From positions 1-30,815 of the forward strand of contig JAHIUV010000066.1 of NCBI GenBank assembly GCA_018817035.1: DNA of 30,815 bases, given 5' to 3'. Positions 4,424-30,417 of the stretch are shown here, piece after piece. A program made the translations under genes and the position numbers. How positions within the stretch are numbered: position 1 is the stretch's first letter; each line of letters starts with the position of its first letter. The notes beneath the pieces are model-generated. The model searched no databases. It had not been told where the DNA came from and saw only the letters and a program-made list of their open reading frames with translations. This stretch comes from Candidatus Omnitrophota bacterium (GTDB lineage: Bacteria > Omnitrophota > Gorgyraeia > Gorgyraeales > Gorgyraeaceae).

Positions 4424-5257
4424 ATGATAAGCGTAATAATCCCTACCTTTAACCGCGAGAGCCTCCTTAAGAAAACCATAGATTCAATACTATCCCAAAC
4501 ATATCAGGGTTTTGAATTAATTATAGTTGACGACGGCTCGACCGACGATACCCCGCGCCTGATCTCAGGAATAGGCCGTAAAATCATCTATATAAAACAG
4601 GAAAATAAAGGCCCTGCGTCAGCCAGGAACCTCGGCATTAAAAACTCTTCAAAACCTTTCATAGCGTTCCTGGATTCTGATGATAGTTGGGAAAAGGATA
4701 AACTGGAAATACAGTTAAAGGCAATGCGAGAAAACCCTGATTTTCAGATCTCCCATACCAATGAAACCTGGCATAAAAATGGACGCTTACTTAACCAGAA
4801 GAAAAAACATAAAAAATGCGGCGGCTATATCTTTGACAAATGCCTTTCCCTGTGCGCGGTAAGCATGTCGACAGTGATGATAAAAAAAGAGATATTTGAT
4901 ACAGTGGGTATGTTTGATGAAAGCTTGTCATGTTGCGAAGACTATGATTTCTGGTTGCGCGCCAGCGTAAAGCACAAATTCCTCCTAATAGAAAAACCCC
5001 TGACCCTAAAAGACGGAGGCAGGCCTGACCAGGTATCCTCTATCCATCGGACCGGCATCGATAAATTTAGGATAAAATCAATCCTAAAACTCTTGGAAAT
5101 AGCCACCCTCACTCCTAAACAACAAGAATCAGCCAAAAAAGAACTACAAAAAAAGTGCCAGATTTACGGCAAAGGCTGCCTAAAACACGGCCGCGCAGAA
5201 GAGGGCAGGCACTACCTAACCATGTCCAAACCCGCATTGGGATATGACCTGTTATAA
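4424..5257 (+). CDS. Glycosyltransferase family 2 (GT-A fold)
   Basis: SVIIPTFNR, IIVDDGSTD, ARNLGI, FLDSDD and EDYDFW motifs. Confidence 0.92.
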   Translation: MISVIIPTFNRESLLKKTIDSILSQTYQGFELIIVDDGSTDDTPRLISGIGRKIIYIKQENKGPASARNLGIKNSSKPFIAFLDSDDSWEKDKLEIQLKAMRENPDFQISHTNETWHKNGRLLNQKKKHKKCGGYIFDKCLSLCAVSMSTVMIKKEIFDTVGMFDESLSCCEDYDFWLRASVKHKFLLIEKPLTLKDGGRPDQVSSIHRTGIDKFRIKSILKLLEIATLTPKQQESAKKELQKKCQIYGKGCLKHGRAEEGRHYLTMSKPALGYDLL

Positions 5258-5262
5258 AAAAT

Positions 5263-5494
5263 GTAATCGATGAGTTATTGAGAGAGCGCGTCAAAATTGT
5301 TCGAGCGAGCCGACAAATATTCTTCTCGACTAGGCTCGAAGGATATTTGTCGGCGAGTCGAGAACCGTAAAGAGAGATCTTACGTTACCTCCCCCATAGA
5401 TCACCTGTTACTAAAAATGTAATGGGTGAGTTAACAGAGGCGCGGTAGCGACATGTCATTGCGAGAAGGAGCAAAGCGACGACGAAGCAATCTC
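5263..5494. repeat. Composite REP/MITE-like palindrome cluster
   Basis: Nested hairpin GCCGACAAATATTCTT (5309-5324) / AAGGATATTTGTCGGC (5339-5354) inside TTCGAGCG...AGTCGAGAA. Also a GTCATTGCGA...GAAGCAATCTC element (5455-5494) and GTAAT..GTGAGTTA-like ends at 5263, 5419 and inverted 5392-5411. Confidence 0.8.
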
Positions 5495-5601: not shown

Positions 5602-7839
5602 ATGAACGCACCTAAGATAATAAAGTTTACGGCGCTATGCATGATTTTATTGCTATTAACTGGCGCTCAGGGGTATTCAAGTGAATATTCTTCGGAAATA
5701 TCAGACATGCCCCGGAATCTGAGGATTCCCGTTAATTCTTCTTCTGATGAATTCGAGAACAGATTTTCACTGGTATCTAATCAGAATATAACCACAAAAA
5801 CACGCAGGGAATTCCTGGAAGAAATCACTGCCGCGGCTATTTTTCTTCCTTTATCCCCTCAGTTAATAATGCCCGGAATATCACCTGCCCAGCAAACAAA
5901 ACCAAGCATAGTGCCGCTTATAAGCAAATGGCTTGCGCAAAACGTAGCGCCTAACACAAAAGTCCCTTTAAGTTTTAAAGTCCCTGATTATTTAGCCGCT
6001 GAAACCTGGAAACAGACCCTGAGTGAACCCGAAGGAGGAGTCCACGAGAGGATGGTCTTGTCAGAAGGCCTTGTTATTTATGACGGTGGTGCGGCGCAGA
6101 TATTCCAGGCTTTGACAGGTGATATCCAGCCCGCTAAAGTCTTGGCTCGCGTCCTGTGGGAAGCGCGCCTGGGCCAGCTTGCCAGCTTGGATGCCACGGG
6201 AGGAAGTTTTGTTTATTCGGACCAGGATAATATCTCTTATAAGGAAGGGGAAAGAGGCTTTAGATTTAAAATAATAAATTCATACGGACATTGGCAATTA
6301 AAAGATATTTATACCGGAAAAATAACTACATGGAGCCAGTGGCAGCCTGTAGCCGGAGAAAATGCCTGGGCAGGGGTTTTAGGGCCCCTCGAAATTTACC
6401 TAAAAGAACACGGTAATGTTTATAAACCTGCTGTATTGGAAATGCGGCTCGCCGAAGAGGTTGCCAGGGCAGCTATAACATTACAGGCAGATAACGGCGG
6501 CATACGAATGGCGCCGAAAGGCACATGGTCGCCTCAGGAGCCGGGCACTAATCCCATGGGATACGAATGGCTGTTCAATGAGATCTCTACGGAGAATAAT
6601 CTATCCTGGCATGCCGCGTTCAATAAACTCTATCAGCTCACCGGAAAAAGTGTATATAAAAATGCCCTGAACGGCGTGGAAAATTACCTGAAGAAAAGTT
6701 TTGACGCGCAGAAAGGCGTATTTAACCAGGGTATGCACTATGATAAAGCAAGAAAAACATGGGCCTCTAACTCCACATTCGCGACAGATTGCCAGACATG
6801 GGCAATAGATGTGCTGGGAGCCGAAACAATAGACAAATGGTTTGGCGCTAACTCAGCTTACAGGTTATGGGCAAAAACTAAAGGATTAGCCGGTATTTAT
6901 AGTGGAAATAATTTAACAGCCCTTGATTTTACATCAAGAAAACAAGTGAAGAGCATTGAATGGACAGCCGGCGGTATTATGGCGGCGGCAATATTGTCAG
7001 ACTATTACGAAAAAAGCAACGCGAAGATATCTATAGAGTGCGGGAATGACGCGATATCCATGTATACCCATATGCAGAGCCTGGCAGTTAAATCAGGAGA
7101 CACCCTGGCATGGCCTTATTCTGACAAAAGGGCTCCTACGGGCCACGGCTGGACAGCGGCAGGCAAGATTTTAAGCACTGCTTCAACGTCGTGGATGGGG
7201 TTTATAGAAATAGCAGCCAATCCTTTTGTCCTGGGAGGCAGGCAGATCCCTGGGCTGGTAAAAGTGGTAAAAGCATCCGGCAGGAATATTTCAAACAAAA
7301 GCACCCAGATTTTACCCCAGCAGGAAATAAAAGAAAACAAAGTCAATTCTACAGGAAAAGACATCTGGCAGTTAGGTACCCCGGGGCAATATTCAGATTA
7401 TACATGGAAATCTAAAGCTGTTTGGAGTGATTTTAATCCACCGGTACAATTAATAGGCGGACAACCGCTTTTAATAGAGTATGAGATACGAGGTTCTGAT
7501 GTTATGGGTATTCAGTTAATACCTGTGGGCCAGTCTGAATCATCAATAGGCGACATGATCGTAGTTAGGGGCGTTGGAAATAAAAAATCCATTACTATTA
7601 CAGTCCCATCTACGCGAAGAGTACACAGGATCGCTTTTCAGATCGGGGAAAACGCATGGGGCAGATTAGGGGGCTCTATGAATGCAGTGCTTATCATAGA
7701 TTCCATAAAGCCTATCGCGCCTGGAAGCGGAACAAGCATGGCATTACCCGCGGATGACTTTAAAAATAATAAAATAGAACGAAGTTCTTTCTTGTCAAAC
7801 ATGTTTAAAGCCGCACTTTACCTGGGAATCTCTATTTAA
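5602..7839 (+). CDS. Secreted hypothetical protein; probable six-hairpin (alpha/alpha)6 glycosidase-like domain plus C-terminal beta-rich domain
   Basis: Hydrophobic N-terminal signal (MNAPKIIKFTALCMILLLLTGAQG). Trp/Glu-rich motifs STENNLS, DCQTWA, IEWTAG, WPYS, TGHGW and STASTSW recall uncharacterised six-hairpin glycosidase-like proteins; the fold call is from memory, not a search. Confidence 0.6.
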   Translation: MNAPKIIKFTALCMILLLLTGAQGYSSEYSSEISDMPRNLRIPVNSSSDEFENRFSLVSNQNITTKTRREFLEEITAAAIFLPLSPQLIMPGISPAQQTKPSIVPLISKWLAQNVAPNTKVPLSFKVPDYLAAETWKQTLSEPEGGVHERMVLSEGLVIYDGGAAQIFQALTGDIQPAKVLARVLWEARLGQLASLDATGGSFVYSDQDNISYKEGERGFRFKIINSYGHWQLKDIYTGKITTWSQWQPVAGENAWAGVLGPLEIYLKEHGNVYKPAVLEMRLAEEVARAAITLQADNGGIRMAPKGTWSPQEPGTNPMGYEWLFNEISTENNLSWHAAFNKLYQLTGKSVYKNALNGVENYLKKSFDAQKGVFNQGMHYDKARKTWASNSTFATDCQTWAIDVLGAETIDKWFGANSAYRLWAKTKGLAGIYSGNNLTALDFTSRKQVKSIEWTAGGIMAAAILSDYYEKSNAKISIECGNDAISMYTHMQSLAVKSGDTLAWPYSDKRAPTGHGWTAAGKILSTASTSWMGFIEIAANPFVLGGRQIPGLVKVVKASGRNISNKSTQILPQQEIKENKVNSTGKDIWQLGTPGQYSDYTWKSKAVWSDFNPPVQLIGGQPLLIEYEIRGSDVMGIQLIPVGQSESSIGDMIVVRGVGNKKSITITVPSTRRVHRIAFQIGENAWGRLGGSMNAVLIIDSIKPIAPGSGTSMALPADDFKNNKIERSSFLSNMFKAALYLGISI

Positions 7840-7882
7840 CACTCTTGCCCGAACTCGTATTGGGTAAGGGTGTTGTTGTTTC
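7838..7882 (+). terminator. Probable intrinsic terminator after the 745-aa gene
   Basis: AACACTCTTGCCC-gaactcgtatt-GGGTAAGGGTGTT stem with G-U pairs, followed by GTTGTTTCT. Confidence 0.55.
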
Positions 7883-7884
7883 TA

Positions 7885-8160
7885 GTCATAATTTCCTGCC
7901 CGTCAGGTTGTTGATTGATATTCCAATCCACTAGTATACCAAAATCCAAGAAGCATTTTATTTTAATGGAACCTCGGCGAGATCATCTGGGATCCTGACT
8001 AGGCCTCAATCGACGTGCGCTCCAAGCTAATGGTACAGACTTGCTCGGGTGTCCATGGGTTGAGCATGTGATTCCTGCTGAGGTTTGTGCCTAATCCCTT
8101 AAAGAGGGATATAGGATGTTTCTTCCCATTCCCGTTACGAAAACGAGTTTAATCTTGACT
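7885..8160 (+). repeat. Composite cassette-boundary repeat, copy R1 (segments B-C-D-E)
   Basis: 7885-8038 differs from 9443-9596 at only 4 of 154 positions (manual alignment). 8039-8160 is a more diverged match to about 9597-9724. Confidence 0.95.
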
Positions 8161-8182
8161 TTTTAAAATAATCTTATATAAT
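8155..8182 (+). promoter_or_regulatory. Putative promoter of the Fic gene
   Basis: TTGACT (8155-8160), 16-nt spacer, TATAAT (8177-8182), within the tandem ATAATCTTATATAATCTTATATA. Confidence 0.6.
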
Positions 8183-8217
8183 CTTATATAGTTAAAATAT
8201 AACATTCGAGGGATGCT

Positions 8218-9276
8218 ATGAAGGATATGTTTGTTCAGAGATTTCAAAATCTGCCCGGCGAAATCATGTTAAAAATCGCCAAGATTGATGAATTAAAAGG
8301 ACAATGGATTGCAGGAGCTAAGCTGAACCCGCAGGCTTTAGGAAGACTTAAGAAGTCAGTGCTTGTTGCTTCAACAGGAGCTTCAACCCGCATTGAAGGC
8401 GCCCGGCTTCCCGATGAAGACATAGAGAAGTTAATGCGCGGGATTTCTATGCAGAAATTTACAGATCGCGATAAACAAGAAGTTAAGGGATATTATGAGT
8501 TGCTGCAGAATATCTTTGCGTCATGGAAAAGCATTAATTTTTCAGAAAGCGCCATTAAACATTTTCACAAAGAACTATTGAAATACGTTGAAAAAGACAG
8601 GCTTCACAGAGGCGAATACAAGAAAACAGAGAATAAAGTTCATATGATTGACGGGGAGGGTAAATCAATAGGCATTCTTTTTGATACCACTCCGGCATAT
8701 CTCACGCCTAAAGAGATGCAGGAGACAGTGGAACAGGCTCAGGAAGCATTAAAAAATATAAAATATCACCCATTACTTATCATAGGAAATTTTCTTGTAG
8801 AATTTTTAAAAATTCATCCTTTTCAAGATGGTAATGGCAGGCTTTCCAGGATACTTACTAATATTTTGCTATTGAAAGTTGGTTATTTATATATGCCTTA
8901 TGTTTCGCATGAGAAGTTAATAGAGGATGACAAGCCTGATTATTATATGGCATTGAGAAGAAGCCAGAAGACTTTAGGGGCTAAAAGCACGGATATCTCT
9001 CCATGGCTTGATTTTTTCTTATCAGTGATACTTAAGCAGTCTCAAATAGCTATAGGTCTTTTATCCAAGGAAAATATCGAAAAACTTTTATCTCTAAAAC
9101 AACTTGCTGTCTGGCAGTATCTGCAATCTGTCAAAGAAGCTGCCCCTGGCGAGATCGCGAAATCCGCAAAAATAGCCCGCCCAACAGTAAATCAAGTATT
9201 AAATAAGCTTTTACAATTTAAGAAAATAGAACGTATCGGGCTAGGCAGAAGTACCAGGTATAGGGTATTATCCTGA
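8218..9276 (+). CDS. Fic-family protein (class II-type) with C-terminal winged helix
   Basis: Canonical catalytic motif HPFQDGNGRLSR, N-terminal inhibitory-helix motif STRIEG matching (S/T)xxxE(G/N), C-terminal wHTH-like region ending GLGRSTRY, and SD GAGGG. Confidence 0.9.
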   Translation: MKDMFVQRFQNLPGEIMLKIAKIDELKGQWIAGAKLNPQALGRLKKSVLVASTGASTRIEGARLPDEDIEKLMRGISMQKFTDRDKQEVKGYYELLQNIFASWKSINFSESAIKHFHKELLKYVEKDRLHRGEYKKTENKVHMIDGEGKSIGILFDTTPAYLTPKEMQETVEQAQEALKNIKYHPLLIIGNFLVEFLKIHPFQDGNGRLSRILTNILLLKVGYLYMPYVSHEKLIEDDKPDYYMALRRSQKTLGAKSTDISPWLDFFLSVILKQSQIAIGLLSKENIEKLLSLKQLAVWQYLQSVKEAAPGEIAKSAKIARPTVNQVLNKLLQFKKIERIGLGRSTRYRVLS

Positions 9277-9310
9277 TAGGGCATATTCTTTGCAACACCT
9301 TCCAAAATAT

Positions 9311-9724
9311 TGACAAATATGACATTTTGTACCGTTTTGGAAATTACCTACCAATCTGTCCCAGAATTGTGCTTCAAAGTGTCCCCTGGCCCCACAAGAG
9401 GGTGATTTGCTCAGGGGATTAGTGATTCACTTTATTTCCCCGGTCATAATTTCCTGCCCATCAGGCTATTGATTGATATTCCAATCCACTAGTATACCAA
9501 AATCCAAAAAGCATTTTATTTTAATGGAACCTCGGCGAGATCATCTGGGATCCTGACTAGGCCTCAATCGACGTGCGCTCCAAGCTAATGGTACAGCCTA
9601 TACCCTCGTGTGTCCTTGGATTGAGTTTGTGATTCCCGATGGAGTTTTTGTCTAACCTCTTAAAGAGGGGGATCAGGATGTCCTCCTTCCCATTCCCGCG
9701 ATAAAAAGCATCAAATTCTTGACT
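9311..9724 (+). repeat. Composite cassette-boundary repeat, copy R2 (most complete: A-B-C-D-E)
   Basis: 9311-9596 is near-identical to 12617-12889, and 9443-9596 is near-identical to 7885-8038. Confidence 0.95.
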
Positions 9725-9746
9725 TTTGGTGTAAATTTGTTATAAT
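9719..9746 (+). promoter_or_regulatory. Putative extended -10 promoter of the 595-aa gene
   Basis: TTGACT (9719-9724), 16 nt, TG-n-TATAAT (9738-9746). Confidence 0.7.
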
Positions 9747-9759
9747 ACGCTTAAATGCG

Positions 9760-9802
9760 AAGATAGCTGAAGGCCATGGGAAAAGCGGTCTTTTTTTGTC
9801 TT
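9760..9802 (+). promoter_or_regulatory. Leader hairpin with U7 tract (attenuator/terminator-like), homologous to 13086-13126
   Basis: AAGGCC (9770-9775) pairs with GGTCTT (9787-9792), AAGATA (9760-9765) pairs with TGTCTT (9797-9802), and there is a T7 run at 9791-9797. Confidence 0.5.
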
Positions 9803-9836
9803 GTAATATAAAGAGCTTTTAAAAGAGACTAAATAT

Positions 9837-11624
9837 ATGAGAAAGATTAATAAAATAATTAATATAGCCGTAGTCATATTTTTAATTTTTTGCACTATTT
9901 TACATGCTGATAACATAAAAGAAGAAAGTTGTTTACGTCCCTCAATAGGGAAACAAAAAACTTATGCCGACATAACAGAAAGAATGAAATTAAATTCAGA
10001 TATAATTTTTTCTAATATATTTGCAGAACAAGAGTTTCTAGGGGACTTAAATTCAGAAGCTTTTAGTATTTTGAGAACTATTTACGGAAAGAGGAGGGGC
10101 GATTTACCAGAAGAGATGTTTCTTGAGCATCGAGACTATCTCCTTTCTACCTTTGGGGAAATTAAGCCATTTCCAGATTTATACGATGTAAACTGTTATA
10201 AAATTTTATTTTTAAAAATACAAGCACTTGAAGCTTATTTTGATAAAATTGTTATACATTTGAATAAATTAGAGCCTTACGATGAGCTTAATGCCAAATA
10301 CAATGTTACTCAAAAACGTTCCGGAGATTTTAAAGATGGATATAATAACAATAGAGTTTCTTGGAAGCTAAGCGAATCAATCAATAATTTAAAAGAGAAA
10401 AAGTATAAATTTTTAGAGATTCCATTTATTTTTCTTAATTCATGGGATTATGCATTTGGATTCAATACAGAAGGCTATAATGATGAAGATATAAATTTGA
10501 TGTTTGATGCTCCAACTATTGCTTTATGCAAAGAATTAAAGGGTTATTTGTTATATCTTGACGAAGTCAATAAAGGCAAAGGAATTAACACTAATATATT
10601 TTTAGAATGTATAACGTATTTAGCGCTCCGAGATAGCTTTACACATGAAGAAGCAAGTATTCTCATACAGGCCCTGTTTCCTGAAAATTATACAAAAAGC
10701 GTTGATTCAGATAAAGCTTCAGGATTGTTATATAAAGCTTTGAAGGATTTAAGAACGGTTGAGATAGCCATAGGATATTTGACGAGGCCGAGGCGTTCTA
10801 GCTGGCCACATGATAGACATTACGCTTTTCAAGAAATTGGCAGCGCTGTTATGAGTAGGGAGGTATTAAAGTACGCCCCTTTTTATAAAAGACTGCTCAG
10901 AGCAATGTTGTTATTTTCATTTACTCCTGACCATTCTGATTTGGCAGTGTATGATGGTTATATTGGAGGATTTTTGTATAGTTTAAATGCTACGGATGAT
11001 TTGGCATTAGCTACTTTGTGGGCTTTAGATAATCCGAATAACTTTGATAAATCTAAATCAGTGCAACCATATACAAATTTAGAATTAGAAGGAAAGCATT
11101 ATTACGTAGCTTCATTAATAGCAAGAAGAAATCAAAACATTGTAGAGGATAAAGAAAAACATTTTACCCATTCTGAAAAAATAGAAATTTTATTGACTAG
11201 CCTTAGATACTGCAGGGAGTCCAATTGGGATTTTTATTCTAGCGAAGAATTTGAATTTATCCCTATAAAATTGTTACCTTATTTACCTGATTTAACAGAT
11301 GAAGATATGAAACTTATATTGAACGAATTGGCTGACATAGTTGATGAGACAATAAAAAAGTCATTGTATAAGCACACAGCGGAATTCCGAAGGCTTTCTA
11401 TAATATTGAAAGCTATTGAGAATTTTATTGAAATTAGACCTGAAATTTCGTTACCTGCAAAATTAGTTAATTCAATTAATTTAATTTCTAGGGATAAAAT
11501 TCTCCAAGATAATGAGTTAACGGAAATTATACAGGTTGATTCTAATGATGAGATGCAAAAGAACACAGGAGAAGATATTTTGTCGAAGGTCAAAAAACAC
11601 CGCAATTTTTTGATACAATTATAA
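9837..11624 (+). CDS. AT-rich hypothetical secreted protein, no recognisable family
   Basis: 595-codon ORF with a basic plus hydrophobic N-terminus (MRKINKIINIAVVIFLIFCTILHA). Visibly more AT-rich than the housekeeping genes. Confidence 0.75.
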   Translation: MRKINKIINIAVVIFLIFCTILHADNIKEESCLRPSIGKQKTYADITERMKLNSDIIFSNIFAEQEFLGDLNSEAFSILRTIYGKRRGDLPEEMFLEHRDYLLSTFGEIKPFPDLYDVNCYKILFLKIQALEAYFDKIVIHLNKLEPYDELNAKYNVTQKRSGDFKDGYNNNRVSWKLSESINNLKEKKYKFLEIPFIFLNSWDYAFGFNTEGYNDEDINLMFDAPTIALCKELKGYLLYLDEVNKGKGINTNIFLECITYLALRDSFTHEEASILIQALFPENYTKSVDSDKASGLLYKALKDLRTVEIAIGYLTRPRRSSWPHDRHYAFQEIGSAVMSREVLKYAPFYKRLLRAMLLFSFTPDHSDLAVYDGYIGGFLYSLNATDDLALATLWALDNPNNFDKSKSVQPYTNLELEGKHYYVASLIARRNQNIVEDKEKHFTHSEKIEILLTSLRYCRESNWDFYSSEEFEFIPIKLLPYLPDLTDEDMKLILNELADIVDETIKKSLYKHTAEFRRLSIILKAIENFIEIRPEISLPAKLVNSINLISRDKILQDNELTEIIQVDSNDEMQKNTGEDILSKVKKHRNFLIQL

Positions 11625-11661
11625 AAAGATAATTGTCTATGAATTCTATTATAAGCTAGTA

Positions 11662-11853
11662 TACCGTTTGCAAATCTGATCTTATAAGTGTCCCCATCTC
11701 CAAGATTGAATATGCCCCATTAGGGAAAATAGAGACAGCGTCCGTTTTCCCCAGTCATAATTTCCTGCCCCACAGTCTATTCCCAGATATACCAGTCTAT
11801 TTTGAAGGTGCAGACTTGTCTATGTATCTATGTGTTGAGTTTGTGATTCCTGC
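11662..11853 (+). repeat. Degenerate boundary repeat, copy R3 (decayed A, core B, C lost, D retained)
   Basis: TACCGTTTG and AAGTGTCCCC (11686-11695) from segment A, exact GTCATAATTTCCTGCCC (11754-11770), and GGTGCAGACTTG...GTTGAGTTTGTGATTCCTGC (11807-11853). Confidence 0.85.
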
Positions 11854-11882
11854 ACCAAATGTCGCTCAATTCTAATAAGACC

Positions 11883-11910
11883 TTGAAATAGACAATTTAT
11901 ATGATATAAT
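11883..11910 (+). promoter_or_regulatory. Putative extended -10 promoter giving a near-leaderless HEPN-MNT transcript
   Basis: TTGAAA (11883-11888), 16 nt, TG-n-TATAAT (11902-11910); ATG at 11920. Confidence 0.65.
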
Positions 11911-11919
11911 AGCGCCTAT

Positions 11920-12301
11920 ATGAAGAGCGAGACAAAGAATTGGTTAGACATGGTTGATTATGATTTGATAACGGCCAAGCAAATGCTTGAGACGAGCCGT
12001 TATTTTTATGTGTCATATGGCAATCGAAAAGGCTCTTAAGGCTATAGTTTGTGAAGAGACCGATAAAGTTCCTCCCAAAACCCATGATTTAATATATTTA
12101 ACGGGTCTCGGAAAGGTAAAATTGACCCCGGATACATTAGACTTCATAGGGATGATAAACAACGCCGGCATAGTAACTAGATATCCCGAAGATTTATCAA
12201 AGCTCGTTTCCAGTTATCCCGTAGATGTAGCCAAAGAATATTTACAAAAAACTCAAGAGGTAATAAAATGCATAAAACAGAACCCCGTATTGAAGGGATA
12301 A
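11920..12301 (+). pseudogene. HEPN-domain protein (COG2250-like) broken by a frameshift near 12000
   Basis: The frame from ATG 11920 gives the HEPN N-terminus MKSETKNWLDMVDYDLITAKQMLETSRY and stops at 12039. A different frame carries VIFMCHMAIEKALKA...PKTHDL...TRYP to 12301. Confidence 0.8.
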
Positions 12302-12591
12302 TAAAAGAGTATACGCAAGGTTTAAAAAAATTAGGCATTAATGTCGAGCGTGTAATTCTCTACGGCTCTTTTGCAGAAGGGAAGCACCGAATAGACAGCG
12401 ATATTGATATAATCGTAGTATCTAAAGATTTTCAATCCATGAATTTAAGAGAGCGGTTGGAGGTTTTGGGGGTTGCTGCAGTAAGAATAATGAAACCTAT
12501 TGAAGCAAAAGGCTATACTCCGGAAGAAATAAAAGAGGCATCCCAAGCTAGTTTTTTGAAAGAGATTTTAGAAGTAGGAGTCAGCGTTTAA
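12268..12591 (+). CDS. Minimal nucleotidyltransferase (MNT), putative antitoxin partner of the HEPN gene
   Basis: GS-x10-DxD motif (YGSFAEGKHRIDSDID), 107 aa, overlapping the HEPN 3' end. Confidence 0.88.
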   Translation: MHKTEPRIEGIIKEYTQGLKKLGINVERVILYGSFAEGKHRIDSDIDIIVVSKDFQSMNLRERLEVLGVAAVRIMKPIEAKGYTPEEIKEASQASFLKEILEVGVSV

Positions 12592-12616
12592 GGATTCTCT
12601 TGAAATTTATCCCATA

Positions 12617-12930
12617 TGACAATTTGACAATTTGTACCGTTTTGGAAAGTACCTACCAATCTGTCCCAGAATTGTGCTTCAAAGTGTCCCCTGGCCTTAC
12701 AAGAGGGTGAGTTGCTCAGGGGATTAGTGATTCACTTTATTTCCCAGGTCATAATTTCCTGCCCGTCAGGCTATTGATTGATATTCCACTCCACCAGTAT
12801 ACTAAAATCCAAGAAGCATTTTATTTTAATGGAACCTCGGCGATCCTGACTAGGCCTCAATCGACGTGCGCTCCAAGCTAATGGTATAGGCTTGCTCGGG
12901 TATCCATGGATTGAGTTTGTAATTCCTGCA
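12617..12930 (+). repeat. Composite boundary repeat, copy R4 (A-B-C-D; 12-nt deletion in C)
   Basis: Near-identical to 9311-9596 but lacks GAGATCATCTGG. Segment D matches R1. Confidence 0.95.
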
Positions 12931-13046
12931 GGAGTGCTTTCTAAACCAGTTGGATTATAGGAAAACAGCAGAAACAACCAGTAGAAAGATATCAGAATTG
13001 GCAGGGTAGGACGGTTGACAGTTACCTAAAATGGGGTTAATTCCTT

Positions 13047-13074
13047 TTGACTTCTCGTTAAAGTTTGATATAAT
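13047..13074 (+). promoter_or_regulatory. Putative extended -10 promoter of the 492-aa gene
   Basis: TTGACT (13047-13052), 16 nt, TG-n-TATAAT (13066-13074). Confidence 0.7.
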
Positions 13075-13085
13075 AATCATAAATT

Positions 13086-13126
13086 GGACAAAGGCAAGAT
13101 CATGGGGAAATGGTCTTTTTTTGTCC
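13086..13126 (+). promoter_or_regulatory. Leader hairpin with U7 tract, homologous to 9760-9802
   Basis: AAGATCAT (13096-13103)-ggggaa-ATGGTCTT (13110-13117), outer GGACAAA/TTTGTCC, and a T7 run at 13116-13122. Confidence 0.55.
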
Positions 13127-13166
13127 TGTAATATTAGCAGGTTTTAAAAGGGATTTTTAACATATT

Positions 13167-14645
13167 ATGCGAAAGTTAGAAAAATTGTTTTTCCTCCTGA
13201 TATCTTTTGTGATCATGATAGATAATATACCCATCATACCTGTCTGTGCTTCAGAAACCCTTAGAGTCCCGCTTTATTTTGAAAAGAAGGAAATTGCGGT
13301 CGAAGATATCAGGAAGATTTCAAAGTCTATATTAGACGAGTTTTTTAGTGGTAAGGTTGTATCTTCACCGATTGCCAAGGCGTTCTTGCAAGAGTTAGAC
13401 CCGAAGTCCTATAGCGCAGTAATAGTCAGTATGACGGAAAAATATTTTAAAAGAGAGACATTTTTCGATACAAATAAAAATGGAATTACTGAGATAGAAA
13501 AGAGGTTAGAAGGTTACGTTAAAAGAAGACGCTCTTTGGAATCTGAAGATCTTCAAAAATTCATGGAATTATTTTTAAGCCATATAAAAAAGATAGTCAG
13601 CGAGATTGAACGGGAGCCTCCTGTTCTCACTGACAATAAAAACCGCGCTATAAGCATTGATATACTATTAAATGATGCAGAGGATTTCGTTGAAGGACAA
13701 ATCAAAGATATCGAAGTAAAAACCAGGATAGCGGAATTATCAGGCAAGATTTATGCCCATGTTGCTATTGTCGACAATAAGGAGATGGACGAGCTTTTGA
13801 GTAAAATAACAAAAAAATATCTGCAACTGTTCGACCGTTTTAAGGAAGAAGCAGATCCTCGCGAATCGCCTTTCTCATCAAGTATAATTTACACAGACTA
13901 TCATCACCCTGTCAGCGGGTGGATGTTAGAATCTTCCATGATGGTGGATGGCGAGTATAATTTTAGATTAGCGAAACAGACATCCCTGCGGACATCTGAA
14001 TTGATTTCGCTTTTGGTGTTTGTCGACAAAGGAAAAATCACGTATTTTGCCCCCGGAAATGATATAGAAAAACGGGAAGAATATAGAGAGGGTATACTTA
14101 TGTCTACTCAGCCTATTCCTGGACGCTTGAAGGTAGTTGTTATTGATCCTTTATCCGAGGAGTTCCAGCGAGACGTTGAAGAAAAGCTGTATAGATACGC
14201 AGAAAGAGAATACGAAGTGCTAAGTAGGATAGAAGAAATAAATCGAATGGGTCGTCTATTAAGAGAGATATTAAATAATAAAAAACATCCTAAAAGAAGC
14301 GCCTTTCCCTCAGATGAAGATATAAAGAAAAGCATAAAAAAAATCGAAGAAGAAAAGGCCGGCCTAAATAAAGAATTGGAAATAGGAAGCATTACTGTAG
14401 ATAAATTAGAGCTCATGATAAGGGAGCGGGTTGTTGCCATAGAGAACCTTCCATCAGGAGCTTTTGCTAATGCTGGCGCAATGTCATTCCGGGATTTAGG
14501 CTTATCTTCTCCCTTGGACTTATTGCATGGTATTGATAAGATGTACCCAATTATAGAGCAACTTTTATTAAAAGGAAAATTTCCTGACAAAATACCAGTA
14601 AATAATTTTTTATTCCTACCGCGCGACACGCAAACTTACCTCTAA
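13167..14645 (+). CDS. Hypothetical secreted protein, charged and helical, no recognisable family
   Basis: 492-codon ORF with N-terminus MRKLEKLFFLLISFVIMIDNIPIIPVCA. Confidence 0.75.
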   Translation: MRKLEKLFFLLISFVIMIDNIPIIPVCASETLRVPLYFEKKEIAVEDIRKISKSILDEFFSGKVVSSPIAKAFLQELDPKSYSAVIVSMTEKYFKRETFFDTNKNGITEIEKRLEGYVKRRRSLESEDLQKFMELFLSHIKKIVSEIEREPPVLTDNKNRAISIDILLNDAEDFVEGQIKDIEVKTRIAELSGKIYAHVAIVDNKEMDELLSKITKKYLQLFDRFKEEADPRESPFSSSIIYTDYHHPVSGWMLESSMMVDGEYNFRLAKQTSLRTSELISLLVFVDKGKITYFAPGNDIEKREEYREGILMSTQPIPGRLKVVVIDPLSEEFQRDVEEKLYRYAEREYEVLSRIEEINRMGRLLREILNNKKHPKRSAFPSDEDIKKSIKKIEEEKAGLNKELEIGSITVDKLELMIRERVVAIENLPSGAFANAGAMSFRDLGLSSPLDLLHGIDKMYPIIEQLLLKGKFPDKIPVNNFLFLPRDTQTYL

Positions 14646-14657
14646 TAAAAAGTAGAA

Positions 14658-14738
14658 AAGTATCCCCTTTTCCCCGGTCATAATTTCCTGCCCGTCAGGC
14701 TATTGATTGATCTCCTGCCTTAATAGTATAATTAATCC
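14658..14738 (+). repeat. Boundary repeat copy R5, which is the native upstream/promoter region of the beta-propeller gene
   Basis: 14677-14711 GTCATAATTTCCTGCCCGTCAGGCTATTGATTGAT is identical to 12748-12782. TTGATT (14703-14708), 18 nt, TATAAT (14727-14732); ATG at 14739 is 7 nt after the -10 box, suggesting a leaderless mRNA. Confidence 0.85.
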
Positions 14739-16262
14739 ATGAAATATTTTATTTTTCCCGTGATATTGGCTGTTTTTGCTTTTGCCCCTATAGCGATAGC
14801 CGACGAAACATGGGAGCGCGTCACAGGCATCACCGAGCCCAATATCAGGGAAATAGCCATCAGCGGCATGGCTTTATACAGCGCGTCTGCCAGGAACCTG
14901 TATCGCAGTGAAGACGACGGCAATACCTGGCACGGCGTATTTTCCGCGAGAGGCGAGGACAATGCCATAAACTTTATAGCCGCTTTAAGGAACTGCGTTT
15001 TTGTCTGCACTAACAGGGGATTATTTAAAAGCATTGACGGCAAAGCAGGATGGAAGAATATATTTAAAGGAATAGGCGCCGAAGAAAAATCAGTATTCCA
15101 CATAGCTCTTTCCGGGGACAAAAATCTCTATCTCGGCACAAAAAAAGGATTATTTACCAGCTCAGATAATGGCGCTACATGGAAAAAAGGCACAGGCCTT
15201 GCCGCGGATCTTAGCGTATCATGGGTATCTTTTTATGAAGACAGCGTACTTTTAGCCACAGAAAAAGGCATATATAAAAATTCAGGCACTGATTGGAAAA
15301 GAACATTCATCGCGTCTTCCGAGGAAACCGAATACGACATTGACTCGCAGGACGAATCCCTAAGCGCCATGAATCCGGTCAATAGCATAGCAACAGCCCA
15401 GGACAAGATCTACCTTGCCACGAACTCCGGCATATTTATAAGCGATAACAAAGGCGAATCATGGCAGAGCTTCGAGTCCACAGGCCTCGGTTCGCAAAAG
15501 ATCAACCGATTACTGGTTCTCGACTCGCAAACGCAATATCCTTCGAGCGCAGTCGAGAAGAATATATTATTTGCCGCTACTGATAATGGCGTATTTATAT
15601 TCAGTGATGACGATAAAACATGGCAAGCAGTATATAAAGGGATAGACGCAGATAAAATAAACTCTATACGCGCGGACAATAAAGGCAGGTTATGGGCTGC
15701 TACTAATAAAGGGTTATATAGATCGAAAGGGGTTCTTGGCGTTAATATTCTTCGAGCGAGTGAAACGAGTCGAGAAGAAAATATCCTGAAAGAAATCAAC
15801 CACGAACCTACCATAAGGCAAGTCCAGAATGCGGCAATCGAATACGCTGAAGTAAACCCCAACAAAATAAAAAACTGGAGAAGACGCGCAAACCTAAAAG
15901 CTTTTTTTCCGGAGGTATCAATAGATTATGACAAAACTATCAATTATGACAGCGGAGCTGATACATATTACATAGGTCCGCACGACTGGGGCGCCACCGT
16001 AAAATGGGATCTCGGCGAGCTTATATGGAATCCCGACCAGACATCAATAGACGTCAGATCAAAATTAATGGTGCAACTGCGCGACGATATACTTGACGAG
16101 GTGACAAGGGCGTATTTTGAGCGGAGAAGGTTACAGATGGAACTGCATTTCAACCCTCCGGAAAACCCAAAATCAAAGATGGAAAAAGAACTGCGCCTAC
16201 AGGAATTAACAGCCGACCTGGATGGCCTCACAGGAGGTTGCTTTTCCAGCCAACTTAAATAA
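14739..16262 (+). CDS. Secreted BNR/Asp-box beta-propeller protein with C-terminal helical domain resembling a single TolC/OEP repeat
   Basis: Signal peptide, repeated S-x-D-x-G-x-(T/S)-W Asp boxes (SEDDGNTW, SSDNGATW, SDNKGESW), and C-terminus EPTIRQVQNAAIEYA...WDLGELIW...DEVTRAYFERRRLQ. The TolC-like call is inference. Confidence 0.7.
   Translation: MKYFIFPVILAVFAFAPIAIADETWERVTGITEPNIREIAISGMALYSASARNLYRSEDDGNTWHGVFSARGEDNAINFIAALRNCVFVCTNRGLFKSIDGKAGWKNIFKGIGAEEKSVFHIALSGDKNLYLGTKKGLFTSSDNGATWKKGTGLAADLSVSWVSFYEDSVLLATEKGIYKNSGTDWKRTFIASSEETEYDIDSQDESLSAMNPVNSIATAQDKIYLATNSGIFISDNKGESWQSFESTGLGSQKINRLLVLDSQTQYPSSAVEKNILFAATDNGVFIFSDDDKTWQAVYKGIDADKINSIRADNKGRLWAATNKGLYRSKGVLGVNILRASETSREENILKEINHEPTIRQVQNAAIEYAEVNPNKIKNWRRRANLKAFFPEVSIDYDKTINYDSGADTYYIGPHDWGATVKWDLGELIWNPDQTSIDVRSKLMVQLRDDILDEVTRAYFERRRLQMELHFNPPENPKSKMEKELRLQELTADLDGLTGGCFSSQLK
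15517..15559. repeat. REP-like palindrome read in frame inside the CDS
   Basis: TTCTCGACT (15517-15525)...AATATCCTTCGAGCGCAGTCGAGAA, compared with intergenic AATATTGTTCGAGCGCAGTCGAGAA at 26301-26325. Confidence 0.75.
15744..15776. repeat. Second REP-like element in frame inside the CDS (33 nt)
   Basis: AATATTCTTCGAGCGAGTGAAACGAGTCGAGAA, compared with intergenic AATATTCTTCGAGCGACCAAAGGGAGTCGAGAA at 23724-23756. Confidence 0.85.
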
Positions 16263-16275
16263 CCATGCGGTTTTA

Positions 16276-16467
16276 GTAATCAGTGAGTTGACAGAGGAAG
16301 GTAGGTCAATATTGTTCGAGTCCCTCGACTACGCTCGGGATAAACTTAAAGAGTCGAGAACTCTCTGAACATGCTTCTCGACTACGTCCCGATACTTCGG
16401 GACTCCGCTCGAAGAATATTTACACACGGGAAAAGCTTTACAGTATCCCTGATAACTCACCGGTTAC
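16276..16467. repeat. Composite REP/MITE-like cluster
   Basis: Head-to-head TTCGAG...AGTCGAGAA units and a GTCCCGATACTTCGGGAC hairpin, bracketed by imperfect inverted ends at 16276-16297 and 16447-16467. Confidence 0.8.
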
Positions 16468-20413: not shown

Positions 20414-20441
20414 AAAAATAAAGGACACAACCGACTCGAAA

Positions 20442-20526
20442 AATATTCTTCGAGCGGAGTCCCGAAGTATCGGGACGGAGTCGAGAAGCTAACTTCATAA
20501 AACTGCAATGCACTGTGAAGTTAAGG
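20442..20526. repeat. REP-like element plus AACTTCA...TGAAGTT hairpin
   Basis: AATATTCTTCGAGCGGAGTCCCGAAGTATCGGGACGGAGTCGAGAA, near-identical to 30351-30396. Confidence 0.85.
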
Positions 20527-23674: not shown

Positions 23675-23797
23675 GTCATTGCGAGGAGTCCCGAAGTTTT
23701 GGGACGACGAAGCAATCTCAGGCAATATTCTTCGAGCGACCAAAGGGAGTCGAGAAGATAACTTCACAATCATACATCGTATGTTTGTGAAGTTAAG
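23675..23797. repeat. Composite REP cluster (three modules)
   Basis: GTCATTGCGA...GAAGCAATCTC with internal GTCCCGAAGTTTTGGGAC, then AATATTCTTCGAGCG...AGTCGAGAA, then AACTTCACAA...TTGTGAAGTT. Confidence 0.85.
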
Positions 23798-26174: not shown

Positions 26175-26360
26175 TGCGGGATTGCTTTGCTTCTCGACTC
26201 ACGAAGTTTACCCTGAGCGCAGTCGAAGGGTTCGCTCGAAGAATATTGTCCTTCGACTATGTCCCGATACTTCGGGACAAGCTCAGGACTCAGTTCAAAG
26301 AATATTGTTCGAGCGCAGTCGAGAACATTTCTTGTGTCATTGCGAAGCCGAAGCGATCTC
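26175..26360. repeat. Composite REP cluster between rpsP and trmD
   Basis: Inverted and direct TTCGAGCG/AGTCGAGAA units, CCCTGAGCGCAGTCGAAGGG, GTCCCGATACTTCGGGAC, and GTCATTGCGAAGCCGAAGCGATCTC. Confidence 0.85.
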
Positions 26361-30312: not shown

Positions 30313-30417
30313 GTCATTGCGAACACGAAGCGCCCGAAGCAATCTCGATCAATATTCTTCGAGCGGAGTCCCGAAGTATCGGGACGAAGTCGAGAAGGTA
30401 ATGGCGAGAAGTTAAGG
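30313..30417. repeat. Composite REP cluster
   Basis: GTCATTGCGA...GAAGCAATCTC, then AATATTCTTCGAGCGGAGTCCCGAAGTATCGGGACGAAGTCGAGAA, then GAAGTTAAGG. Confidence 0.85.

What the first reader, a model, noticed from the sequence alone, without database searches (positions are those of the whole stretch)
7885..14738. Repeat-delimited gene-cassette array with no integrase, attC or dif site
Seen: five same-orientation copies of one composite repeat (cores at 7885, 9443, 11754, 12748, 14677) fall exactly in the gaps between unrelated genes: 745-aa | Fic | 595-aa | HEPN-MNT | 492-aa | beta-propeller gene. Each unit has its own promoter. The copies range from near-identical over about 150-290 bp to heavily deleted. 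Established: integron and pdif arrays have this one-unit-per-repeat layout and often carry TA cassettes, but use attC hairpins or Xer sites, which I could not find here. Inference: this is a different cassette-accretion or exchange platform, driven either by serial site-specific integration at one target by a recombinase acting in trans, or by RecA-mediated swapping between long repeats.
Basis: partly seen in the sequence, partly recalled or inferred. Interest (0 to 1): 0.85.

Follow-up and report, generated by a model that had tools for sequence, protein, structure and literature searches.

The report
Gene-relic repeats bounding swappable gene cassettes
In an uncultured Omnitrophota bacterium, five same-direction repeats separating unrelated genes are decayed partial copies of the neighbouring beta-propeller gene; they mark a chromosomal hot spot where small gene units (toxin-antitoxin, Fic, secreted proteins) pile up and are exchanged between genera, most likely by ordinary homologous recombination rather than a new integron-like machine.

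Summary
Five same-orientation repeat copies lie exactly in the gaps between six gene units, and each unit has a near-consensus promoter.

The repeat is not an attC or dif analogue. It is a mosaic of:
- the native promoter and first 17 nt of the downstream beta-propeller gene;
- fused at one shared deletion joint to codons 423-446 of that gene, with a stop, a frameshift and a lost ATG;
- fused at codon 447 to module D, whose 5' part is locus-specific;
- plus two dispersed MITE-like pieces.

In relatives the GT2-to-propeller interval ranges from 0.4 to 9.5 kb. Cassettes are shared between genera at 83-95% DNA identity, while flanking core genes are 66-75% identical. A metagenome contig (L106) shows an undecayed relic: promoter plus open codons 1-447, joined to D and another TA cassette. 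It has a sharp identity breakpoint inside the propeller gene.

No recombinase lies in the window, and the genome's only complete tyrosine recombinase found is XerD.

Best reading: insertion or duplication with a long target duplication, then amplification, gene conversion and inter-genus exchange by homologous recombination.

This scan has met the same general pattern before on other DNA (Fic in Patescibacteria, rpoD-end and yifB-end relic arrays). It is a well-documented new variant of a known kind, of moderate interest.

The parts
4424..5257 (+). GT2 glycosyltransferase gene: conserved left anchor of the variable interval
   Evidence: Pfam PF00535, 8e-36. Syntenic in 9 relatives.
5602..7839 (+). 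745-aa secreted protein gene, first unit. No Pfam match; possibly an (alpha/alpha)6-barrel-like fold.
   Evidence: No homolog in relatives' intervals.
7877..7964 (+). Repeat 1, module B: copy of the propeller promoter region (17-mer core at 7885-7901, TTGATT-18-TATACC) and the first 17 nt of the gene, with ATG changed to AAG
   Evidence: 78% identity to 14677-14755; alignment A1
7965..8041 (+). Repeat 1, module C: relic of propeller codons 423-446 with an in-frame TAG
   Evidence: tblastn: 79% aa identity to residues 423-446. 75% nt identity to 16003-16075.
8032..8136 (+). Repeat 1, module D. The 5' part (conserved block GTGTCCATGGGTTGAG..TGTGATTCCTGC) is locus-specific. The 3' part (8091-8136) is the 44-nt hairpin terminus of a dispersed ~196-nt element.
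8155..8182 (+). Promoter of the Fic unit (TTGACT-16-TATAAT)
8218..9276 (+). Fic (SoFic-like) gene with a C-terminal wHTH
   Evidence: Pfam Fic, 4e-14. PADLOC SoFic, 6.7e-37.
9311..9434 (+). Repeat 2, module A'. It includes a 60-nt element (9325-9389) dispersed on at least 7 other contigs, often as adjacent inverted pairs (MITE or IS-end-like).
9435..9698 (+). Repeat 2, modules B, C and D. The B-to-C deletion joint (9522/9523) is the same as in repeat 1.
9719..9836 (+). Promoter (TTGACT-16-TATAAT) and shared hairpin leader (module E) of the 595-aa gene
   Evidence: Also found on C176 and upstream of homologs in L035 and L067.
9837..11624 (+). 595-aa leader-family secreted protein gene
11746..11858 (+). 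Repeat 3: module B (core at 11754), then a larger deletion, the tail of C, and the 5' part of D. G024 has the same internal joint.
11883..11910 (+). Promoter of the HEPN-MNT unit
11922..12301 (+). HEPN toxin gene, frameshifted in the window (ORF 11987-12301). An 11-nt insertion after 11998 in samples X1, X3 and X4 restores the 130-aa form.
   Evidence: Pfam HEPN; reads; G024 ortholog of 130 aa
12268..12591 (+). MNT (MntA-type) antitoxin gene
   Evidence: 84-87% identical to G005 and G024.
12617..12940 (+). Repeat 4: modules A', B (core at 12748), C (with an extra 12-nt deletion) and the 5' part of D
13047..13166 (+). Promoter and shared leader (module E) of the 492-aa gene
13167..14645 (+). 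492-aa leader-family secreted protein gene
14665..14738 (+). Repeat 5: the native propeller promoter region (core at 14677; TTGATT-18-TATAAT at 14703-14732; ATG 6 nt after the -10 box)
   Evidence: Orthologous single copy in G011, G021, G024 and G014.
14739..16262 (+). Intact 507-aa beta-propeller gene: conserved core gene, source of modules B and C (C source at 16003-16075) and right anchor of the interval
   Evidence: Found in 36 of 41 genomes searched

Best explanation
The array is a recombination-built variable islet. Its 'repeats' are scars.

Step 1 (inferred). In an ancestor, DNA was inserted or duplicated next to the conserved beta-propeller gene with a long target duplication. One copy of the gene kept only its promoter and about codons 1-447 and became fused to the control region (module D) of the adjoining unit. 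A complete copy was left at the right-hand end.

Step 2 (shown by sequence). The truncated copy decays. In this genome about 1.25 kb (codons 6-422) was deleted once, and the deleted version was then copied, so three repeats share one deletion joint.

Step 3 (shown as patterns, mechanism inferred). The same-direction relic copies and the resident gene act as long homology for RecA-type recombination. This includes unequal crossover and gene conversion within the array. It also includes single- or double-crossover import of units from other strains and genera, with breakpoints inside the propeller sequence.

Step 4 (inferred). Units that carry their own promoter accumulate, and TA modules may resist loss. 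The units seen are SoFic-like Fic, HEPN-MntA and other TA pairs, and secreted proteins that share only a 40-aa leader.

No dedicated recombinase or hairpin site is needed.
For: Relic nature of the repeats:
- Modules B and C match 14677-14755 and 16003-16075 back to back. The C fragment is 79% identical in protein and carries a stop, a frameshift and a lost ATG.
- The same B-to-C deletion joint is present in copies 1, 2 and 4.

Undecayed precursor:
- L106 carries the promoter plus open codons 1-447, then module D and an MntA/HEPN-like cassette.
- G024 has GT2 directly followed by a long relic that is 92% identical to its resident gene.
- G011 has a decayed relic next to GT2.

Variable interval:
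- It spans 0.43 to 9.5 kb between conserved GT2 and the propeller gene.

Exchange between genera (identity in the cassette versus in flanking genes):
- G005/G011 TA cassette: 94.9% over 706 nt, versus GT2 66-70% and TPR 73%.
- Window/G024 HEPN-MNT unit: 83% over 845 nt, versus 68% for the propeller gene.
- L106 versus the G011 resident gene: identity jumps from 63-84% to 97-100% at nt ~457.
- G005 resident gene versus G011: identity falls from 99% to about 80% after codon ~395.

Mosaicism within the window:
- Module C is 98-100% identical among copies, B is 93-94% and the 5' part of D is 75-85%. The closest partner switches along the unit.

Indel bounded by D:
- G005 and G011 differ by one cassette-sized indel bounded by D copies.

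No site-specific machinery:
-.

Precedent:
- Insertion with long target duplication, with proposed amplification via the repeats (PMC2853133).
Against: - The units hold unrelated genes, so simple amplification of one unit cannot explain the content. How each new gene first entered behind a D/promoter module is not shown.
- The codon-447|D joint is identical in seven genomes, although the adjoining relic sequences are only 57-61% alike between clades. This needs either gene conversion up to the joint or recurrent events at one site, and the latter would favour a site-specific process.
- The 17-mer core is invariant even in decayed copies whose -10 box is damaged, which hints at a function not yet explained.
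- L106 is a 3.1-kb metagenome contig and could be chimeric.
- No reads were available to show excision, circles or copy-number variation.
- The array looks stable across four groundwater samples.
Confidence: 0.6

Rival explanations
1. Site-specific cassette platform. A recombinase encoded elsewhere (XerD or an unrecognised enzyme) recognises the invariant 17-mer or the codon-447|D joint and integrates or excises circular cassettes, as in integrons or pdif modules.
For: - The 17-mer is exact in all five copies, with 0 expected, even where the flanks have decayed.
- The identical 447|D joint occurs in seven genomes although the adjoining relic sequences differ by clade.
- The window/G024 homology starts only 13 nt downstream of the 17-mer.
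Against: - The 17-mer is the native single-copy element upstream of the propeller gene in other genera, and it lies upstream of unrelated promoters in G041.
- There is no hairpin or palindrome and no dif-like site.
- The only complete tyrosine recombinase found is XerD, and no serine recombinase was found.
- Relics can be 1.3 kb long and mosaic, with breakpoints spread inside the gene.
- Other relics end at codon ~455 or at 461 or beyond.
Confidence: 0.1
2. Four independent insertions, each creating its own long target duplication at the same target, with no later copying of repeats by homologous recombination.
For: - The general pattern is described for addiction-type gene units (PMC2853133).
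- Fic is bracketed by a 157-nt repeat pair at 97% identity.
- Relics with different ends exist in G024 and G013.
Against: - Copies 1, 2 and 4 share one internal deletion joint and one C|D joint, so they descend from a single already-deleted copy.
- The repeats are mosaic.
Confidence: 0.12
3. The repeats persist mainly as regulatory modules. Duplicated operator and promoter segments were selected to co-regulate newly arrived genes with the propeller gene and the type II secretion-like cluster. Mobility is incidental.
For: - The 17-mer is conserved across genera at a fixed distance from promoters.
- The 5' part of D is conserved at 83-90% between genera in non-coding DNA.
- Every unit has a strong promoter just downstream.
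Against: - The relic -10 boxes are damaged in copies 1 and 2 (TATACC).
- The best-conserved module is the dead coding fragment C, which has no obvious regulatory role.
- The marginal RNA fold (z = -2.1) does not explain the gene relic itself.
Confidence: 0.1
4. Assembly artefact: the unit order, or some copies, result from mis-joining at repeats in a short-read MAG.
For: - Logan contigs break at the repeats.
- The genome is in 228 contigs.
Against: - Each copy has its own deletions, substitutions and unique flanks.
- Depth is even across the array (8.5-12x, versus 12-14x in the flanks).
- Independent contigs confirm 10521-12679 and 12857-14711.
- Equivalent architectures are seen in four other MAGs.
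Confidence: 0.05

Closest known systems
Insertion with long target duplication (Nobusato 2000; Furuta et al. 2010, PMC2853133)
   Same: - Small addiction-type gene units are flanked by direct repeats longer than 30 bp that are copies of the local target.
- No transposase or integrase is present.
- The authors proposed amplification through the repeats.
- It is seen by comparing genomes with and without the insert.
   Different: - Here the units are TA, Fic and secreted-protein genes, not restriction-modification systems.
- The duplication can reach about 1.3 kb of a protein-coding gene plus its promoter.
- Five copies form a serial array.
- The joint and the cassettes are shared across genera, with recombination breakpoints inside the duplicated gene.
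Additive flexible genomic islands and tRNA-targeting integrative-element arrays (Lopez-Perez et al., PMC4898812, PMC4033161; tycheposons, bioRxiv 10.1101/2020.12.28.424599, abstract only seen)
   Same: - A fixed hot spot lies between core genes.
- The number of cassettes varies.
- A partial repeat of the target gene marks each addition.
- Nearly identical cassettes occur in divergent genomes.
   Different: - The target is the 5' part of a protein gene, not a tRNA 3' end.
- The repeats are long and decaying.
- No integrase is present in any array examined.
Integron cassette arrays
   Same: One gene unit per repeat, all in the same orientation, and TA cassettes are common.
   Different: There is no intI, attI or attC hairpin, and each unit has its own promoter.
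pdif (Xer-dependent) module arrays
   Same: Small modules, often TA, bounded by repeats, with the recombinase encoded elsewhere.
   Different: No 28-bp Xer site was found. The repeats are all in one orientation, and the locus is chromosomal.
Displacement or 'orphan module' arrays of CDI, Rhs and MafB loci
   Same: Fragments of a main gene precede successive units and can serve as homology for recombination.
   Different: The relic comes from the 5' part of the downstream gene. It is not in frame with the cassettes, and the propeller gene is not a polymorphic toxin.

Membership tests
Integron | IntI-type tyrosine recombinase adjacent to the array | tested here: not met
   No recombinase domain in any window ORF. 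The genome's only complete tyrosine recombinase is XerD on C25. It scores 155 bits against the integron-integrase cut-off of 265.
Integron | attC sites: imperfect inverted repeats that fold as single-strand hairpins at cassette ends | tested here: not met
   ssDNA folds of the core and of D, on both strands, give z from -1.8 to +0.3. No local inverted repeats were found.
Integron | Mostly promoterless cassettes expressed from a common Pc promoter | tested here: not met
   Each unit has an 11-of-12 sigma-70-type promoter match.
pdif / Xer module array | 28-bp XerC-spacer-XerD sites flanking each module, in alternating orientation | tested here: not met
   A degenerate dif consensus (recalled from memory) gave 0 matches with up to 3 mismatches. 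All repeats are in one orientation.
Additive flexible genomic island | Fixed hot spot between conserved genes, with variable cassette number and content | tested here: met
   The GT2-to-propeller interval spans 0.43-9.5 kb with different contents in 9 genomes.
Additive flexible genomic island | Partial direct repeat of the target gene marking each cassette | tested here: met
   Propeller promoter and coding relics are present in repeats 1-4. Here the target is a protein gene, not a tRNA.
Additive flexible genomic island | Integrase or transposase within or beside the island | tested here: not met
   None in the window or in the G005 and G011 cassettes. G024 has only a roughly 1-kb stretch that I read as an IS remnant; its 113-aa ORF was judged by eye and not scanned against any family library.
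Additive flexible genomic island | Cassettes far more similar between divergent genomes than the core genes | tested here: met
   94.9% versus 66-73%; 83% versus 68%.
Insertion with long target duplication | Insert flanked by direct repeats longer than 30 bp that align to a single-copy target in genomes without the insert | tested here: met
   Modules B and C align to the single native promoter and gene in G011, G021, G024 and G014. G008 is a near-empty site.
Insertion with long target duplication | No other mobility genes in the insert | tested here: met
Insertion with long target duplication | Duplication length and end points vary between independent events | tested here: inconclusive
   The same 447|D joint occurs in seven genomes, but other relic ends lie at ~455 in G024 and at 461 or beyond in G013.
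Tandem amplification by unequal crossover | All units share one novel joint | tested here: met
   The C|D joint and the B|C deletion joint are shared.
Tandem amplification by unequal crossover | Units carry the same genes | tested here: not met
   The unit proteins are unrelated.
CDI/Rhs-type orphan module array | Relic of the constant region of the main toxin gene, in frame with a variable toxin tip followed by an immunity gene | tested here: not met
   The relic is the 5' part of a non-toxin gene, it carries stops, and it is separated from the cassettes by promoters.

The most novel reading that the evidence does not exclude
The duplicated propeller segment (promoter to about codon 447) works as a portable 'address label'. 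Recombination between two copies releases a circle holding one label and one cassette. After transfer, that circle re-integrates by RecA-type recombination into the propeller gene of any family member. This would be an integrase-free functional analogue of an integron, spread over several Omnitrophota genera. The conserved 17-mer and the 5' part of D would add co-regulation or a recombination hot spot.
Probability: 0.25. Interest if true: 0.75.

Novelty: new variant of a known kind. Interest (0 to 1): 0.5.

Why it matters
Omnitrophota are tiny, uncultured bacteria that may depend on hosts and have few recognisable mobile elements. This locus shows how such streamlined genomes can still gather and trade defence or addiction genes and secreted proteins at a fixed site, using only a duplicated piece of a core gene and general recombination.

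It gives a multi-genome example in which the precursor (a long open relic), the intermediates and the decayed scars are all visible. It also extends 'insertion with long target duplication' from restriction-modification genes to TA, Fic and secreted-protein units arranged as a serial array.

It warns against reading repeat-bounded arrays as new integron-like systems before checking whether the repeats are relics of a neighbouring gene.

Tried and rejected
- Rfam scan of the window: nothing at E <= 1, and no tRNA, so this is not a tRNA-targeted island or a known RNA.
- attC-like folding and a dif-like motif: both negative.
- Paralogy of the large proteins: rejected, since only the leader of about 40 aa is shared.
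- Short direct repeats bracketing the interval in G012 and G010: these are palindromic REP-like hairpins, not att sites.
- Public reads: only Logan contigs were available. All 'joints' had 21-35-nt sides at REP elements, so circles and excision could not be tested.
- Exact-pattern scans for the D motif in genome and metagenome collections: mostly chance or unrelated coding matches. Only L067 and L106 were informative.
- Same-genus relative G001: no propeller, TPR or PolA gene downstream of GT2, so it is not usable as an empty-site control.
- Relic phylogeny from 72 nt: too short to place the window's relic. My 'G024 gene' turned out to be G024's own relic copy. The corrected values are 81% to that relic, 75% to G024's resident gene and 74% to the window's own gene.
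- ESM Atlas for the three unknown proteins: only a weak (alpha/alpha)6-barrel lead for the 745-aa protein.

Full report
**1. Observation**

The five copies are real. The repeat finder and BLAST of the five intergenic regions against the 1.47-Mb assembly give same-orientation matches, with E-values from 1e-7 to 1e-121.
- Copies 1 and 2 are 97% identical over 157 nt.
- Copies 2 and 4 are 88% identical over 345 nt.
- Copies 3 and 5 are shorter.

The 17-mer GTCATAATTTCCTGCCC is exact in all five copies, against 0 expected in shuffles. It occurs nowhere else in the genome.

The ORF map and Pfam place the copies exactly in the gaps between the units: 745-aa | Fic | 595-aa | HEPN-MNT | 492-aa | 507-aa beta-propeller. 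The four best promoter matches in the region (11 of 12) sit in front of the four internal units.

The window is the whole contig C174 of a Candidatus Omnitrophota MAG. That taxon label comes from relatives that carry names.

**2. What the repeat is made of**

It is a mosaic of modules.
- **Module B** (for example 7877-7964) is a copy of the sequence just upstream of the beta-propeller gene. It holds the 17-mer, a TTGATT-18-TATAAT-type promoter and the first 17 nt of the coding sequence, with ATG changed to AAG.
- **Module C** follows B without a gap (7965-8041). It is 75% identical in DNA and 79% in protein to codons 423-446 of the same gene, and it carries an in-frame TAG and a frameshift relative to B.
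- Together, B and C are an internally deleted pseudogene lacking about 1.25 kb. The deletion joint is the same in copies 1, 2 and 4, so one deleted copy was later multiplied.
- **Module D** follows C. Its 5' part has a conserved block, GTGTCCATGGRTTGAG..TGTGATTCCTGC. In the genomes searched I found it only at this locus. Its 3' 44 nt are the hairpin terminus of a ~196-nt multicopy element of related genomes. That terminus always lies 15-25 nt upstream of a -35 box and often sits at contig ends.
- **Module A'** (copies 2 and 4) contains a 60-nt element dispersed on at least seven other contigs of this genome, often as inverted pairs.
- **Module E** is a hairpin leader shared by the 595-aa and 492-aa genes. 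It also occurs on C176 and in relatives.

Nothing matches Rfam, and there is no tRNA.

**3. The locus in relatives**

The propeller gene is a conserved gene, usually in a single copy. It was found in 36 of 41 genomes searched and in 22 of 24 genomes of the family.

The gene order GspE-GspE-GspG-GspH-GT2-[interval]-propeller-TPR-PolA-CoaE-Rho is conserved. The interval length differs in every relative examined:

| Genome | Interval length |
|---|---|
| G008 | 0.43 kb |
| G018 | 0.85 kb |
| G002 | 1.2 kb |
| G010 | 2.0 kb |
| G007 | 2.2 kb |
| G012 | 3.4 kb |
| G005 | more than 5.6 kb |
| G011 | 8.0 kb |
| this window | 9.5 kb |

The intervals hold two kinds of content.
- TA-type or defence-type units: HEPN-MntA, a SoFic-like Fic, a 73-aa + DUF2204/DUF6036-like pair, and a PBECR-like nuclease + DUF2283 pair.
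- Large proteins that share only an N-terminal leader of about 40 aa and have unrelated bodies (HIT + wHTH, methyltransferase + HATPase, or no Pfam match).

The 5' part of module D marks unit boundaries in G005, G011, G022, G013, G014, G024 and G053 as well. That is 9 of 38 family genomes and 6 of 17 genera. All the multi-unit arrays carry it, and the short intervals lack it. Related genomes are not independent samples, so this is a pattern, not a statistic.

**4. Evidence that units move between lineages**

| Comparison | Unit | Flanking or core genes |
|---|---|---|
| G005 vs G011, 73-aa + 153-aa cassette | 94.9% over 706 nt | GT2 66-70%, TPR ~73% |
| Window vs G024, D-promoter-HEPN-MNT unit | 83% over 845 nt | propeller gene 68% |

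- The G005/G011 cassette is first in the G005 array and third in the G011 array.
- The window/G024 unit sits next to different neighbours in the two genomes.
- Repeat 3 of the window has the same internal joint as G024's unit.
- G005 and G011 differ by one unit bounded by D copies.

**5. The precursor state and the recombination signal**

L106 is a 3.1-kb metagenome contig whose first 464 nt are identical to the end of G005's contig. It carries the propeller promoter and an open reading frame for codons 1-447, cut at the same point and fused to D. A promoter and an MntA/HEPN-like pair follow.

The identity profiles show breakpoints inside the gene.
- Against G011's resident gene, L106 is 63-84% identical up to nt ~457 and 97-100% identical after it.
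- G005's resident 3' part is 99% identical to G011 up to about codon 395, then about 80%.
- L106 is 99% identical to G005's resident copy at 1367-1480 and 81-90% at 1480-1633. The relic and the resident gene are therefore mosaic relative to each other.

G024 shows the same architecture. GT2 is followed directly by a long relic (contigs C110 and C62) that ends at about codon 455 and is 92% identical to the resident copy on C3. G011 keeps a decayed relic next to GT2, made of codons ~274-301 and ~417-448.

Inside the window the repeat copies are also mosaic. Module C is 98-100% identical among copies, B is 93-94% and the 5' part of D is 75-85%, and the closest partner changes along the unit.

**6. 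Negative controls**

- No window ORF has a recombinase or transposase domain.
- The genome (91% complete) shows one complete tyrosine recombinase, an XerD (392 bits against a cut-off of 330). There is also one fragment, and no serine recombinase was found.
- The core and D do not fold as single-strand hairpins better than shuffled sequence.
- A degenerate dif pattern, recalled from memory, finds nothing.
- The 17-mer occurs once, upstream of the propeller gene, in G011, G021, G024 and G014.
- In G041 it lies upstream of two unrelated promoters. It therefore looks like a promoter-associated cis-element that was copied together with the gene.

**7. Mechanism**

The most economical account is as follows.
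- An insertion or duplication with a long target duplication created [promoter + codons 1-447]|D ... [intact gene].
- The direct repeats then supported unequal crossover, gene conversion and import of units from other genomes by homologous recombination.
- The relics decayed by deletion.

Shown by sequence:
- the relic nature of the repeats;
- the shared joints;
- the long open relic;
- the variable interval;
- the excess identity of cassettes over flanking genes;
- the breakpoints inside the gene;
- the mosaic repeats.

Inferred:
- the first event;
- the involvement of RecA;
- circular intermediates;
- any selective role for the TA units.

Open problems:
- How unrelated genes first came to sit behind a D/promoter module is not shown.
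- The 447|D joint is identical in seven genomes, although the adjoining relic sequences differ by clade. They are 57-61% identical between the window and the G005/G011 relics, but 72-81% identical to propeller genes of their own clades.
  - Gene conversion up to the joint explains this.
  - A site-specific process is not excluded.
  - Relics ending at ~455 (G024) and at 461 or beyond (G013) show that the end point is not universal.

**8. Reads**

Only Logan contigs were available. They show:
- the array at even depth in the best sample (8.5-12x, against 12-14x in the flanks);
- the array's presence in four groundwater samples;
- breaks at the repeats;
- independent confirmation of 10521-12679 and 12857-14711.

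They cannot show circles or excision.

**9. Comparison with known systems**

The locus fails the defining tests for integrons and for pdif arrays.

It meets most features of additive flexible genomic islands (PMC4898812, PMC4033161), apart from the integrase and the tRNA target.

It fits 'insertion with long target duplication' (PMC2853133). That comparison was a lead from earlier notes of this scan on other genomes, and I checked it in the paper.

It differs from the published cases in four ways:
- the length of the duplication (up to 1.3 kb of a protein gene);
- the serial five-copy array;
- the unit types;
- the inter-genus sharing with breakpoints inside the duplicated gene.

**10. Verdict**

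The finding is a new variant of a known kind. Interest is moderate (0.5). It would be higher if circles carrying one relic and one unit were demonstrated.

Noticed in passing
window 9837-9960, 13167-13290; L012:12180-12302(-), L012:14920-15042(-), L023:3660-3786(-), L067:5879-6010: Large proteins in this interval, and some elsewhere, share only an N-terminal leader of about 40 aa: a K-rich start, a hydrophobic stretch, then ..AY(A/P)..TLR(V/P)P. Their bodies are unrelated (HIT + wHTH, methyltransferase + HATPase, or unknown). The locus lies just downstream of two GspE-type ATPase genes and GspG/GspH pseudopilin genes. This may be a lineage-specific secretion or sorting signal on polymorphic cargo.
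   Followed up: partly
window 8091-8136, 9653-9698; L031:4006-4200, L028, L026-L035: A 44-nt hairpin sequence (CTAAMCCCTTAAAGAGGGGTATAGGATGTCTCTTCCCATTCCCG) is the 3' terminus of a ~196-nt multicopy element in related genera. It has at least 7 copies in G006 and often sits at contig ends. It always lies 15-25 nt upstream of the -35 box of a gene in the same orientation, so it may be a promoter-seeking MITE or a mobile upstream module.
   Followed up: partly
window 9325-9389, 12631-12695; G000 contigs C19, C43, C73, C79, C133, C176, C206: A 60-nt element is dispersed in both orientations, often as adjacent inverted pairs (MITE-like). It contains GTGTCCCC. G024's interval holds a stretch of about 1 kb that I read as an IS remnant. 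It is flanked by GATTTGGGGACRTCCTATTTGGGGACA repeats, and its 113-aa ORF looks transposase-like by eye (not scanned).
   Followed up: partly
window 5306-5344, 15535-15559, 15744-15781, 16373-16421(-), 20435-20492, 23676-23761, 26253-26351, 30344-30401: A second repeat family is REP-like (AATATTCTTCGAGCG..GTCCCGAAGTATCGGGAC..GTCGAGAAG). It lies mostly between genes, but two copies are inside the propeller reading frame. In the public contigs it shows very high summed depth and many false 'joints'.
   Followed up: no
window 11922-12301 (site 11998): An 11-nt tandem-repeat indel affects the HEPN gene. Contigs of samples X1, X3 and X4 carry 11 extra bases that restore a 130-aa HEPN starting at 11922. 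The window and sample X2 lack them, which leaves a truncated 104-aa ORF. This is either a strain polymorphism that inactivates the toxin or an assembly collapse.
   Followed up: partly
window 14703-14741: The propeller ATG lies 6 nt after the -10 box with no Shine-Dalgarno sequence, so the mRNA is probably leaderless. Relatives have a 5' UTR of about 170 nt with GGAGG. The relics share the leaderless form.
   Followed up: no
G012:C9:3647, G003:C42:2721, G053:C195:11582; L110 (G041:C18) 6983-7703: Near-exact copies of the 17-mer (GTCATTATTTCCTGCCC) occur at other loci in three genera. In G041 two copies lie upstream of two unrelated promoters. This suggests an operator shared by a small regulon.
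   Followed up: partly
L038 (G001:C1): The same-genus relative has GspE-GspE-GspG-GspH-GT2, but no propeller, TPR or PolA gene within 12.8 kb downstream. No propeller gene was found in its 86%-complete genome.
   Followed up: partly
window 5602-7839: For the 745-aa protein, the Atlas structure neighbours are Omnitrophota hypothetical proteins and GH88/GH127/alginate-lyase-like (alpha/alpha)6 barrels (TM 0.40-0.57). It may be a secreted polysaccharide-active enzyme.
   Followed up: no
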